Positions 17,523 through 17,839 of a stretch of 41,223 nucleotides of DNA are shown here, piece by piece. The notes beneath the pieces are model-generated. The model saw only the letters and a list, made by a program, of their open reading frames with translations. It was not told the origin of the DNA and ran no database searches. Position numbers and translations under genes: made by a program. Each line of letters opens with the position of its first letter. Position 1 is the first letter of the stretch. Origin of the DNA: a virus; UHGV virus genome UHGV-0388930; one strand, written 5' to 3'.

Positions 17523-17839
17523 CCGGAACCATGCGGTAACCAAGGCATGGTTACCGCAAAAAGCTAGGTTTTATGCGGGTTTGCGGGCATTTTTATGGGG
17601 AGTAACCAAAGTAACCATCCGAAACACTCACCTATATATGAAAAAAATATTTTACAATCTTTGTATTATATTTAACAAAGTTTTATAAAAATGCCCCGCG
17701 CGTAAGGGAACCTAAAAAGTATGGTTACTTTGGTTACCGTAACTGATAAAGCCTTATTCCATGCGGGTTTTGGTAGTAACCTGAGAGTAAAAATATGTGG
17801 TTACAGTAACCGTAAAAGTGGTTACTGAGAGGGAATTGT
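17523..17839. repeat. Putative replication origin: at least 10 copies of GGTTAC/GTAACC iterons, a 9-bp-arm hairpin gcggtaacc-aaggcat-ggttaccgc (17534-17558), ATGCGGGTTT repeats and an AT-rich unwinding stretch (17610-17700)
   Basis: Non-coding; repeats read directly. Confidence 0.5.

What the first reader, a model, noticed from the sequence alone, without database searches (positions are those of the whole stretch)
17523..17839. Iteron-rich putative origin downstream of the primase-helicase genes, sharing a ~30-bp element with the att region
The 317-bp non-coding stretch after the DUF927 helicase-like gene carries 10 or more GGTTAC/GTAACC units in both orientations, a 9-bp-arm hairpin (gcggtaacc/ggttaccgc) and a very AT-rich unwinding element. 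The segment TAGGTTTTATGCGGGTTTGCGGGCATTTTT (17567-17597) is almost identical (one indel) to 4314-4342 in the putative att region beside the integrase. ATGCGGGTTT recurs at 17761, and AATGGTAGGwTTTAT is tandemly repeated at 4279-4323. Sharing a binding element between the origin and the att site is unusual and hints at coordination by a common protein, or that the 4.2-4.4 kb region is an origin- or partition-like remnant rather than a simple att site.
Basis: seen in the sequence. Interest (0 to 1): 0.55.

Follow-up and report, generated by a model that had tools for sequence, protein, structure and literature searches.

The report
Phage replication origin with bend boxes
The stretch is very likely the replication origin of a temperate gut Clostridia phage, of the kind known from staphylococcal pathogenicity islands, and the ~30-bp element it shares with the integration site is a widespread, strongly curved DNA "box" that probably shapes both protein-DNA assemblies rather than linking them.

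Summary
Ten of the window's 21 GGTTAC hexamers lie in 17536-17825. A perfect 17-nt inverted iteron pair flanks a 90% AT core. The 22-mer TAGGTTTTATGCGGGTTTGCGG occurs only at 17565 and 4314.

The region sits directly 3' of a DUF927 + Cch-HTH helicase homologous to the SaPI Rep and Cch structures. About 70 relatives keep the same layout, iterons / AT-rich / inverted iterons, and the iteron sequence changes with helicase clade. I read it as a SaPI-type Rep origin, a new member of a known kind.

The 4.2-4.4 kb region is a genuine attP. A prophage-host junction maps to about 4242, and lysis genes lie to its left.

The shared element is not private to this phage:
- Relatives carry two copies flanking the origin core.
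- attP carries two copies, one of them inverted and degenerate, flanking the junction.
- The exact 20-mer recurs in about 25 unrelated Clostridia contexts and 13 non-Clostridia genomes, often next to iterons, integrases or tRNA/tmRNA genes.

Two curvature models rank it as the most bent DNA in the window. Best reading: an IHF-site-like architectural module. No dedicated ori-att coupling is supported. What reads the exact 22-mer is unresolved.

The parts
15137..15640 (+). CHC2 zinc-ribbon (primase-type) protein, 167 aa, directly upstream of the helicase gene
   Evidence: Pfam Zn_ribbon_DnaG E=9.7e-13 and phrog_11992. A homologue lies upstream of the helicase in nearly all relatives.
15642..17522 (+). 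Rep-like initiator-helicase, 626 aa: DUF927 core plus a C-terminal Cch HTH / winged-helix domain
   Evidence: Pfam DUF927 E=4.8e-36 and HTH_56 E=6.6e-22 at residues 509-606. phrog_8841 primase/helicase E=4.8e-186. PDB 8tch 'Pathogenicity island protein' E=2e-27 and 5dgk 'Active helicase' E=7.7e-8, which I take to be Cch.
17532..17558 (.). Proximal iteron pair arranged as an 11-bp-arm palindrome (TGCGGTAACCA / TGGTTACCGCA)
   Evidence: It is conserved in position in 31 close relatives, and the iteron letters change with clade.
17558..17594 (+). Box copy 1: AAAAAGCTAGGTTTTATGCGGGTTTGCGGGCATTTTT, the shared element in its full 37-nt form
   Evidence: Top PWM hit in the window. Highest predicted curvature in the whole 41-kb window in two models. 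Conserved column block in relatives.
17602..17618 (.). Left core iterons: two GTAACC, 9 nt apart
   Evidence: Forms a perfect 17-nt inverted repeat with 17721-17737.
17630..17692 (.). AT-rich unwinding core. It begins with the conserved ACCTATATATG and is bracketed by the inverted repeat GGGCATTTTTAT (17585-17596 / 17685-17696).
   Evidence: 90% A+T over 60 nt. CCTATATA is conserved in relatives. Inverted repeat.
17697..17707 (.). Conserved GC box CGCGCGTAAGG at the right edge of the AT-rich core
   Evidence: Nearly invariant in 31 relatives and also present in the distant relatives L063 and L071. Function unknown.
17721..17737 (.). Right core iterons: two GGTTAC, pointing opposite to the left pair
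17746..17782 (+). Box copy 2, degenerate in this phage: ATAAAGCCTTATTCCATGCGGGTTTTGGTAGTAACCT. Same orientation as copy 1 and about 188 bp from it.
   Evidence: Fourth-best PWM hit in the window. Relatives carry TATTTTATGCGGGTTTGAGC here. Curvature peak of 30 degrees at 17780.
17776..17825 (.). Distal iterons: 17776, the palindromic pair at 17799-17811, and 17820, running up to the ribosome-binding site of the next gene (ATG at 17840)
   Evidence: Positions are conserved in relatives.
4159..4169 (+). ACCTATATATG in the attP P arm, identical to the word at the left edge of the origin's AT-rich core
   Evidence: These are the only two exact copies in the window.
4183..4200 (+). P-arm copy of the 18-nt direct repeat CACAGTAAAGTCACAAAT, a candidate integrase arm-type site
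   Evidence: Two copies in the window, 0.06 expected.
4196..4232 (-). Box' : an inverted, degenerate box (AAAAAGTACGGTTTTACAAGGTTTCTCAG...) ending 10 nt from the phage-host junction
   Evidence: Third-best PWM hit on both strands of the window. Curvature peak at 4224, fourth highest in the window.
4238..4246 (.). Left limit of similarity to an integrated prophage. The crossover core starts at or just right of 4242.
   Evidence: The window and L096 (Enterocloster hominis) are 98% identical from 4241/4242 rightwards and unrelated to the left. The L096 left flank encodes a Na/Pi cotransporter and a GNAT, which are host genes.
4307..4343 (+). attP box: AAAATGGTAGGTTTTATGCGGGTTTGCGGCATTTTTG.
   Evidence: Curvature at the 99.8-99.97th percentile. 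Its first 15 nt repeat the word at 4277-4291.
4393..4410 (+). P'-arm copy of the 18-nt repeat CACAATAAAGTCACAAAT. It overlaps the integrase stop codon.
4403..5539 (-). Tyrosine integrase, 378 aa
   Evidence: Pfam Phage_integrase E=2.3e-7.

Best explanation
17523-17839 is the phage's replication origin, of the self-loading Rep-helicase type defined in SaPIs. By analogy with SaPI Rep, the DUF927/Cch-HTH protein encoded just upstream recognises the GTAACC hexamers through its C-terminal winged helix. It would assemble on the two oppositely oriented iteron pairs (17602-17618 and 17721-17737), melt the 90% AT core between them, and load itself as the replicative helicase. Priming would be helped by the adjacent CHC2 zinc-ribbon protein. 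The element shared with the att region is a separate accessory module, a ~37-bp box: A5, then GCTAGG, then T4, then ATGCGGG, then T3, then GCGGGCA, then T5, with A/T tracts starting at positions 1, 12, 23 and 33. Two copies flank the origin core, and two copies (one inverted and degenerate) flank the crossover region of a genuine attP (junction about 4242). I propose it is an architectural bending site. It is intrinsically curved and probably also bound by a bending or wrapping protein. It would play the role that IHF sites play in lambda attP and in iteron-plasmid origins: bringing flanking specific sites (Rep iterons; integrase arm and core sites) into one nucleoprotein complex. Ori and att share it because both are bend-dependent assemblies built from a common parts bin, not because replication and integration are co-regulated. 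What is shown: sequence anatomy, conservation, homology, junction mapping and predicted curvature. What is inferred: Rep-iteron binding, melting, bending and its functional role. Sub-confidences: origin 0.85; genuine attP 0.85; architectural role of the box 0.5.
For: ORIGIN. (1) The helicase has DUF927 plus HTH_56 and matches PDB 8tch 'Pathogenicity island protein' at 2e-27 and 5dgk at 7.7e-8. (2) Published SaPI origins lie immediately 3' of rep. They carry 6-12 penta- or hexanucleotide iterons, have a central AT-rich region, and have at least two iterons on each side pointing in opposite directions. Rep reads them with a C-terminal winged helix (PMC9371898; PMC7581432). All of these sequence features are present here. 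(3) In about 70 IMG/VR relatives the same layout starts within a few nt of the helicase stop codon. The iteron changes with helicase clade: GTAACC, GTAACA, GGTAAC, GTTACA, TTACAC, TAACCC. The last 66 residues are the most divergent part of the protein. (4) The iterons stay with the helicase even though the downstream gene is replaced in most relatives. ATT. The junction with the Enterocloster hominis prophage is at about 4242, with host genes beyond it. Holin and endolysin genes lie left of att in the window. An 18-nt repeat is present on both arms. BOX. A PWM trained on relatives with the window excluded gives its four best hits in the window at ori (2) and attP (2). Curvature at 17567 is the maximum of the whole window in both the Trifonov and De Santis models; the att box is at the 99.8-99.97th percentile, and another peak at 4224 lies on the other side of the junction. 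The 37-mer scores 35.9 degrees against 14.9 +/- 4.2 for 500 shuffles, with 0 of 500 reaching it. The flanking A5 and T5 tracts, which vary between contexts, are enriched and in phase. Two box copies also flank unrelated origins: L107 (GTGCGCA iterons, a BT4734_N helicase-like protein) and L075. Two box-like sites flank the tRNA-Ser-derived core in the L085 attP. In other contexts the box sits beside locally specific short repeats. IHF is confined to Proteobacteria, while heterobivalent integrases generally need a bending factor (preprint 10.1101/2023.11.06.565760).
Against: No experiment supports any of this. Rep-iteron binding and origin activity are inferred from homology and layout. The curvature values come from dinucleotide models whose parameter tables I entered from memory. 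A kinetoplast-type control bent as expected. Curvature alone does not explain the box. In silico only the T-tract positions matter, yet the GGG runs and the A in TTTTAT are invariant, and A to T at that position would increase curvature. The exact 20-mer is 'privileged': lineage variants occur only within their own lineage, whereas the exact form recurs in dozens of unrelated contexts and in 13 non-Clostridia genomes. This points to a sequence-specific reader that I could not identify. Helicase relatives at 60-68% identity lack copy 1, so the box is not essential to this origin type. Serine integrases, as in L084 and L122, are not known to need bends. Box' and copy 2 in the window are weak matches (PWM score about 0, z about 4.6).
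Confidence: 0.6

Rival explanations
1. The box is the binding site of an unidentified, highly sequence-specific reader whose primary role is not bending. Candidates are a conserved DNA-binding protein, a recombinase or nuclease, or an RNA-guided factor, with the site acting as a landing pad, recombination hot spot or protective site that mobile elements keep. Curvature would then be incidental.
For: The exact 20-mer recurs in at least 5 unrelated viral contexts and about 38 genome contexts, while two lineage variants hit only their own lineage. In the 13 non-Clostridia hits the flanking bases extend the motif, with A at -1 in 7 of 13 and G at +1 in 9 of 13. G-tract positions are invariant although curvature-neutral. 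The box often abuts or overlaps stop codons and lies mostly between convergent genes, as insertions do.
Against: No protein family is shared among the neighbourhoods. The box lies 72 nt inside the phage arm, not at the crossover. Its paired placement around origin cores and att cores fits an architectural role. There is no dyad symmetry of the kind recombinase sites have. No interrupted copies were seen, although I did not search for them systematically.
Confidence: 0.2
2. One reading: a phage-encoded protein, such as the Rep N-terminus or another replication-module protein, binds the same element at ori and att to coordinate replication with integration or excision.
For: In this window the exact 22-mer occurs only at ori and att. 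The two regions also share ACCTATATATG and an inverted TACTTTTTAGG.
Against: The same box occurs in elements with unrelated replication proteins and integrases, and beside housekeeping genes. Three 36-43 kb relatives with the exact box at ori show no second exact copy. The int-att module, box included, is 98% identical in L083 and L096, which fits an independently exchangeable module. I did not check which replication module those elements carry. The CHC2 protein is present whether or not the box is.
Confidence: 0.08
3. The 4.15-4.40 kb region is a decayed second origin or a partition site, and its resemblance to ori reflects common descent rather than function at att.
For: Three separate ori words recur there: the box, ACCTATATATG and CCTAAAAAGTA in inverted form. 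Both regions contain direct repeats.
Against: There are no GTAACC iterons there and no AT-rich core. The order and orientation of the shared words differ from ori. The prophage-host junction lies within the region. It sits where attP is expected, between the lysis genes and int. The symmetric layout arm repeat / box / junction / box / arm repeat fits an intasome.
Confidence: 0.07
4. 17523-17839 is mainly a transcriptional control region for the downstream operon (ATG at 17840), with GTAACC repeats acting as operators, and is not an origin.
For: Iterons run up to the ribosome-binding site (17820-17825). Initiator binding at such sites could also autoregulate transcription.
Against: The layout tracks the upstream helicase gene rather than the downstream gene, which is replaced in most relatives. 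It reproduces the experimentally defined SaPI origin geometry. The only sigma-70-like matches are at chance level and none is at the box.
Confidence: 0.07

Closest known systems
SaPI / PICI Rep-ori replicons (SaPIbov1, SaPI1) and the related SCCmec Cch helicase
   Same: The initiator-helicase is homologous (DUF927; PDB 8tch and 5dgk hits). There is a C-terminal HTH / winged helix and a primase-type gene directly upstream. The origin lies immediately 3' of the helicase gene, carries 10 hexanucleotide iterons, has a central AT-rich core, and has two iterons on each side in opposite orientation.
   Different: The host and element differ: this is a temperate siphovirus-like phage of gut Clostridia, with relatives in Roseburia and Ruminococcus gnavus phages, not a staphylococcal island. 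The upstream partner is only a CHC2 zinc-ribbon protein. The origin also carries two conserved curved boxes, a CCTATATA word and a CGCGCGTAAGG box; the SaPI papers I read do not mention such elements.
IHF sites in lambda attP (H2, H') and in iteron origins such as R6K gamma ori and pSC101
   Same: The box is a non-palindromic element of about 35 bp with an upstream A-tract, placed between specific binding sites on both sides of a recombination core or an iteron array. It is the same element in origin and att contexts. The distance from the A-tract to a downstream TTG equals that in lambda H' (my own comparison, from memory of the H' sequence).
   Different: The IHF consensus WATCAANNNNTTR is absent, and IHF is confined to Proteobacteria. 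The box is predicted to be curved on its own. Its exact 20-22 nt are far more conserved between unrelated contexts than IHF sites are.
Static bent-DNA segments at origins and recombination sites (phased A-tracts, kinetoplast-type)
   Same: A/T tracts start at positions 1, 12, 23 and 33 of the 37-mer. Predicted curvature is comparable to a kinetoplast-type control.
   Different: Generic bent DNA has no fixed sequence. Here the GC-rich spacers and a TpA step are invariant, and the exact sequence recurs across phyla.

Membership tests
SaPI-type Rep origin (self-loading initiator-helicase replicon) | The origin lies immediately downstream of the rep (initiator-helicase) gene | tested here: met
   The helicase stop codon ends at 17522 and the first iteron starts at 17536. 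The same is true in about 70 relatives.
SaPI-type Rep origin (self-loading initiator-helicase replicon) | 6-12 short (5-6 nt) iterons | tested here: met
   10 GGTTAC/GTAACC in 290 bp, where about 0.1 would be expected.
SaPI-type Rep origin (self-loading initiator-helicase replicon) | A central AT-rich region with at least two iterons on each side in opposite orientation | tested here: met
   17602/17611 (one orientation) and 17723/17732 (opposite orientation) form a perfect 17-nt inverted repeat around a 90% AT core.
SaPI-type Rep origin (self-loading initiator-helicase replicon) | The initiator is homologous to SaPI Rep / Cch and has a C-terminal winged-helix DNA-binding domain | tested here: met
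   DUF927 E=4.8e-36 and HTH_56 E=6.6e-22. PDB 8tch E=2e-27 and 5dgk E=7.7e-8.
SaPI-type Rep origin (self-loading initiator-helicase replicon) | Rep binds its cognate iterons specifically and melts the AT-rich region, and the fragment supports replication | not testable with these tools
   Indirect evidence only: the iteron sequence changes with helicase clade, and the C-terminal 66 residues are the most variable part of the protein. The correlation is partial.
Lambda-type (heterobivalent tyrosine integrase) attP | Adjacent to a tyrosine integrase gene and containing the phage-host crossover point | tested here: met
   int is at 4403-5539. The junction with the Enterocloster hominis prophage is at about 4242, with host genes beyond it. 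Only one junction is available, so the core length is undefined.
Lambda-type (heterobivalent tyrosine integrase) attP | Arm-type integrase sites on both arms | tested here: inconclusive
   An 18-nt direct repeat lies at 4183 and 4393, and AATGGTAGGWTTTAT at 4277 and 4309. Binding is untested.
IHF binding site | Consensus WATCAANNNNTTR with an upstream A-tract | tested here: not met
   No match in ori or att, even for TCAANNNNTTR. Only the A-tract and the overall layout resemble an IHF site.
DnaA box (the accessory site of many iteron origins) | TTATCCACA or TTWTNCACA | tested here: not met
   No match with up to 1 mismatch in either region.
Structured RNA gene or intrinsic terminator | A stable, conserved secondary structure or an Rfam family match | tested here: not met
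   No Rfam hit at the gathering threshold, and only noise at E up to 10. The box folds at -1 to -2.6 kcal/mol. No terminator-like sites. The box occurs in both orientations relative to the upstream gene.
Intrinsically curved (phased A/T-tract) DNA | A/T tracts repeated at about one helical turn, giving predicted curvature far above background | tested here: met
   The tracts start at 1, 12, 23 and 33 of the 37-mer. The box is the top peak of the window in two models; 0 of 500 shuffles reach the observed value. This is a prediction only; no gel assay was possible.

The most novel reading that the evidence does not exclude
The 22-nt core (A)GGTTTTATGCGGGTTTGCGG(G) is the recognition site of an undescribed site-specific architectural factor. 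Such a factor would be a functional IHF analogue used by mobile elements of Clostridia, and occasionally of other phyla. It would mark the places where origins, attP intasomes and other iteron-based nucleoprotein machines are assembled. That would make the box a portable cis-module, spread across phages, integrative elements and chromosomes, that has gone unnoticed.
Probability: 0.25. Interest if true: 0.7.

Novelty: new variant of a known kind. Interest (0 to 1): 0.5.

Why it matters
The origin call gives a concrete and testable origin and initiator pair for a large group of gut Lachnospiraceae and Clostridia phages: more than 70 related contigs, including relatives of Roseburia phage Jekyll and Ruminococcus gnavus phages. 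Origins have not been mapped experimentally for these phages, as far as I could find. It extends the SaPI/Cch self-loading helicase paradigm to them.

The box is the more interesting part. It is a single short element found at origins with different iterons, in the arms of attP sites served by different integrases, beside tRNA and tmRNA genes, and in 13 genomes outside Clostridia. It is predicted to be the most curved DNA in every locus examined. If it is an architectural site, it would show how Firmicutes elements build bend-dependent complexes without IHF. It would also be a useful landmark for finding origins and att sites in metagenomic contigs. If instead it is read by a specific unknown factor, that factor would be worth finding.

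Tried and rejected
- RNA gene: no Rfam family at the gathering threshold or at E up to 10, and no stable fold on either strand.
- tRNA or tmRNA in the window: none.
- Sigma-70 promoter or intrinsic terminator at the box: none. My manual checks for sigma-54, sigma-B and ECF-type spacing did not fit.
- DnaA box and IHF consensus: absent.
- Mini-ORF or C-terminal coding reading of the box (MRVCG... on the forward strand...PANPHKT* on the reverse strand): the frames are not conserved between contexts.
- A box-specific partner protein: the CHC2 zinc-ribbon gene is present with or without the box. Clustering of neighbouring ORFs and Pfam scans of neighbours found no shared family. The non-Clostridia neighbourhoods hold ordinary chromosomal genes.
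- att core = box: rejected, because the prophage junction is 72 nt away.
- BLAST of the box against annotated phages, plasmids and E. coli genomes: noise only. BLAST of the att region against phages: no match.
- Literature search for the sequence: one irrelevant hit.
- Curvature as the whole explanation: rejected, because the invariant G positions and the A in TTTTAT are curvature-neutral or curvature-lowering.
- Resemblances recalled from memory (SCCmec attB ...ATGATGCGGTTTTT, the ISEcp1 inverted repeat CCTAGATTCTACG, the Tn7 TnsB site ACAATAAAGTC): noted but not testable here, and treated as probable coincidence.
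Full report
**1. The observation**

- GGTTAC/GTAACC occurs 21 times in the 41-kb window, and 10 of those lie in 17536-17825.
- The hairpin has 11-nt arms, at 17532-17542 and 17548-17558.
A perfect 17-nt inverted repeat, GTAACCAAAGTAACCAT, lies at 17602-17618 and 17721-17737. A 12-nt inverted repeat, GGGCATTTTTAT, lies at 17585-17596 and 17685-17696. 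Together they bracket a core whose richest 60 nt are 90% A+T.
- The 22-mer TAGGTTTTATGCGGGTTTGCGG occurs only at 17565 and 4314, even allowing three mismatches, and never in shuffles.
- The two regions share more than was noticed. ACCTATATATG occurs only at 4159 and 17630 in the window. TACTTTTTAGG at 4225 is the inverted match of 17711. They share 24 8-mers, against a mean of 2 and a maximum of 10 for random windows.

**2. Gene context**

The window is a temperate phage genome in its attP configuration:
- a holin at 834-1070 and an NlpC/P60 endolysin with choline-binding repeats at 1424-2329;
- a low-GC stretch;
- the att region, followed by a tyrosine integrase at 4403-5539 on the minus strand;
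- an IrrE-type peptidase and HTH repressor pair, and a Rha protein;
- a replication and recombination module: DUF1351, ERF, SSB, an ERCC4 nuclease, a CHC2 zinc-ribbon protein and a 626-aa DUF927 + HTH_56 helicase;
- further on, the small terminase subunit gene at 24226.

The nearest named relatives of the helicase gene are in Roseburia phage Jekyll ('MCM-like DNA helicase') and Ruminococcus gnavus phages. The helicase matches two solved structures: 8tch, 'Pathogenicity island protein' (E=2e-27), and 5dgk (E=7.7e-8), which I take to be the SCCmec helicase Cch.

**3. The origin**

Published work on SaPIs states the following. The origin lies immediately downstream of rep. It consists of six to twelve penta- or hexanucleotide iterons. 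It has an AT-rich region near its centre, with at least two iterons on each side pointing in opposite directions. Rep recognises the iterons with a C-terminal winged helix and loads itself without a helicase loader (PMC9371898). Cch, which contains DUF927, is related to the SaPIbov1 Rep (PMC7581432).

Every sequence-level feature of that definition is met here. The comparative evidence is strong.
- Seventy-four IMG/VR loci encode relatives of the helicase at 50-91% identity.
- In essentially all loci that hold enough downstream sequence, iterons begin within a few nucleotides of the stop codon. An AT-rich stretch of 72-93% follows, and then the same iterons in inverted orientation.
- The iteron word changes with helicase clade: GTAACC, GTAACA, GGTAAC, GTTACA, TTACAC, TAACCC.
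- The last 66 residues are the most divergent part of the protein. The correlation with iteron type is only partial.
- The downstream gene is replaced in most relatives while the iterons persist. This argues against an operator role tied to that gene.

I put the origin assignment at about 0.85. Binding, melting and origin activity are inferred.

**4. Fine structure of the origin**

An alignment of 31 non-identical close relatives gives this order:
1. an iteron palindrome;
2. AAAAAGCTAG.TTtTATGcGGGTTTG.GGG..TTTTT (box copy 1);
3. two iterons;
4. CCTATATA and the AT-rich core;
5. a nearly invariant CGCGCGTAAGG;
6. two inverted iterons;
7. AAAGCCTTATTTTATGcGGGTTTGAGC (box copy 2, same orientation, about 188 bp from copy 1);
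8. further iterons running up to the next gene's ribosome-binding site.

In the window, copy 2 is degenerate (17746-17782). Relatives at 60-68% helicase identity lack copy 1. The box is therefore an accessory, not a defining part of this origin type.

**5. The att region is a real attP**

The window and a contig of Enterocloster hominis (L096) are 98% identical from window position 4241/4242 rightwards through the integrase gene. To the left they are unrelated. The L096 left flank encodes a Na/Pi cotransporter and a GNAT acetyltransferase, which are host genes. The crossover therefore lies at or just right of 4242, and the shared box at 4314 is phage DNA 72 nt inside the integrase-proximal arm.

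An 18-nt direct repeat, CACA[GA]TAAAGTCACAAAT, lies on both arms at 4183 and 4393. These are plausible integrase arm-type sites.

**6. The shared element is a widespread box**

The exact 22-mer occurs in 12 IMG/VR stretches. The exact 20-mer occurs in 48 stretches of species-representative genomes. Only some of these are origins of helicase relatives. The other contexts include:
- an origin with GTGCGCA iterons next to an 818-aa BT4734_N protein, carrying three box copies (L107);
- a DUF927 origin at 35% identity, carrying two copies (L075);
- positions next to the 3' end of a large serine recombinase gene (L084, L122), another tyrosine integrase gene (L085) and a Tn916-type integrase gene (L102, L112);
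- positions directly after tRNA genes (L088, L089, L095, L106, L132, L134) and 190 nt after a tmRNA gene (L101);
- a position beside a ParM-like gene (L089) and beside multi-copy PDDEXK_2 genes (L091, L115, L120, L126);
- intergenic regions next to housekeeping genes.

In most of these the box is flanked by short repeats that are specific to that locus.

Thirteen hits lie outside Clostridia, in Proteobacteria, Planctomycetota, Acidobacteriota, Ignavibacteria, Verrucomicrobiota, Actinomycetes, Anaerolinea and a Bathyarchaeia MAG. About one hit would be expected by chance under uniform base composition; this is my own estimate. Their flanking bases extend the motif, with A at -1 and G at +1. Their neighbourhoods share no gene family.

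The box lies mostly between convergent genes. Two lineage variants of the 20-mer hit only their own lineage, so the exact form is privileged.

**7. What the box is not**

- No Rfam family matches it, and it has no stable fold.
- It has no sigma-70 promoter or intrinsic terminator.
- It has no DnaA box or IHF consensus.
- It has no conserved reading frame.
- No partner gene accompanies it consistently.
- It has no match in annotated phages, plasmids or E. coli genomes, and I found no relevant mention of the sequence in the literature.

It occurs in either orientation relative to the upstream gene. This points to a DNA-level rather than an RNA-level role.

**8. What the box looks like: a bend**

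The 37-mer has A/T tracts starting at positions 1, 12, 23 and 33, separated by GC-rich spacers.
- With the Trifonov wedge model, the highest curvature in the whole window falls on box copy 1 (33.8 degrees over 30 bp, against a window median of 7.4). The att copy is at the 99.8th percentile.
- With De Santis roll/tilt parameters, the top peak is again at 17567. The att box is third, and a further peak at 4224, just left of the att junction, is fourth.
- The 37-mer exceeds all 500 composition-matched shuffles.
- The AT-rich core is not predicted to be curved, so the signal comes from phasing and not from AT content.
- In all 36 unique contexts with enough flanking sequence, the box is at the 97.5-100th percentile of its locus. 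These are not 36 independent observations, because the 20-mer itself is fixed by the search. The added curvature from the in-phase A5 and T5 flanks is independent evidence.
- Close relatives show recurrent peaks at both box positions. Distant relatives usually have a peak beside the right-hand iterons.

**9. Paired placement**

A weight matrix built from the relatives' copy 1, with the window excluded, finds its four best sites on both strands of the window at 17558 (ori box 1), 4307 (att box), 4196-4232 on the minus strand, and 17746 (ori box 2). The third site is an inverted, degenerate box that ends 10 nt from the att junction and coincides with the curvature peak at 4224.

attP therefore reads: arm repeat, box', crossover, box, arm repeat. 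In a second, unrelated phage attP (L085), two box-like sites flank the tRNA-Ser-derived core.

This is the geometry of lambda attP, where IHF bends let the integrase bridge arm and core sites. It is also the geometry of iteron origins that carry flanking IHF sites; I state that from established knowledge. The attP organisation, and the restriction of IHF to Proteobacteria, are summarised in preprint 10.1101/2023.11.06.565760.

**10. Limits of the bend explanation**

In silico mutagenesis shows that only the T-tract positions affect predicted curvature. The invariant GGG runs are neutral, and A to T in TTTTAT would raise curvature, yet that A is invariant. Combined with the privileged exact 20-mer, this means that something reads the sequence itself.

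My best reading is an IHF-site-like element, curved by itself and probably bound by a bending or wrapping protein such as an HU-family member. I give the architectural role about 0.5. The alternative, a specific reader with another purpose, gets about 0.2.

**11. Verdict on coupling**

Ori and att share the box because both use the same architectural part. Three lines of evidence argue against a dedicated ori-att link:
- three 36-43 kb relatives with the exact box at ori have no second exact copy;
- the int-att module, box included, is nearly identical in other elements;
- the box occurs in elements with unrelated replication and recombination proteins.

The extra shared words ACCTATATATG and CCTAAAAAGTA remain unexplained. 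The second is part of the inverted box'.

**12. Scores**

The origin is a new member of a known kind. The box is, as far as I could find, undescribed. It is best classed as a new variant of a known kind of element, an architectural site, with an open possibility of something more specific.

Noticed in passing
window 4183-4200 and 4393-4410: An 18-nt direct repeat, CACA[GA]TAAAGTCACAAAT, lies on both arms of attP (2 copies, 0.06 expected). The right copy overlaps the integrase stop codon. These are candidate arm-type sites. Their core ACAATAAAGTC resembles a Tn7 TnsB-site word that I recall from memory; I did not verify this.
   Followed up: partly
window 4159-4169 and 17630-17640: ACCTATATATG occurs exactly twice in the window: once in the attP P arm and once at the left edge of the origin's AT-rich core, where CCTATATA is conserved in relatives. 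Its meaning at att is unknown.
   Followed up: partly
window 17697-17707: CGCGCGTAAGG, at the right edge of the AT-rich core, is nearly invariant in 31 relatives. It is also present in distant relatives that lack the box (L063, L071). It may be a priming or loading signal; its function is unknown.
   Followed up: no
L087, L094, L097, L101, L103, L104, L109, L111, L118, L123, L127, L128, L130, L134: The exact 20-mer occurs in genomes far outside Clostridia, in ordinary chromosomal intergenic regions. About one chance hit would be expected. The flanking bases extend the motif. No gene family is shared among the neighbours.
   Followed up: partly
L123 (Planctomycetota contig), about 300 nt upstream of the box: About twelve copies of a GGTATATATCAG-type iteron lie directly upstream of the box. 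This looks like a plasmid or mobile-element origin in an unrelated phylum.
   Followed up: no
L091, L115, L120, L126: In two genomes (Bacterium D16-76 and an Oscillospiraceae isolate) the box is multi-copy. It sits next to PDDEXK_2 ('transposase', Rpn-like) genes and is flanked by direct repeats CAAAAAAGATGCC. L120 carries two boxes in inverted orientation, 138 nt apart. This may be a small mobile unit.
   Followed up: no
L089, L095, L106: One element begins immediately after the CCA end of three different tRNA genes. Its first features are a terminator-like hairpin, the box, and then a ParM-like (ALP_N) gene.
   Followed up: no
L127 (Azospirillum MAG): The box lies 208 nt upstream of a flagellin gene and is preceded by two GTGGCATGCT repeats. 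This is a position where IHF sites are common in Proteobacteria.
   Followed up: no
window 14177-14635 and 19036-19674: The phage has two SSB-family genes: a canonical 152-aa SSB in the recombination module, and a 212-aa protein with a C-terminal SSB domain (phrog_26861) downstream of the origin.
   Followed up: no
window 2391-3300, 20400-21600 and 22800-24300: These are low-GC islands (32-40% against about 53% elsewhere). The first carries minus-strand ORFs without Pfam hits, between the lysis genes and att (moron-like). The last precedes the small terminase subunit gene and has few ORFs, so a cos or pac region is possible there.
   Followed up: no
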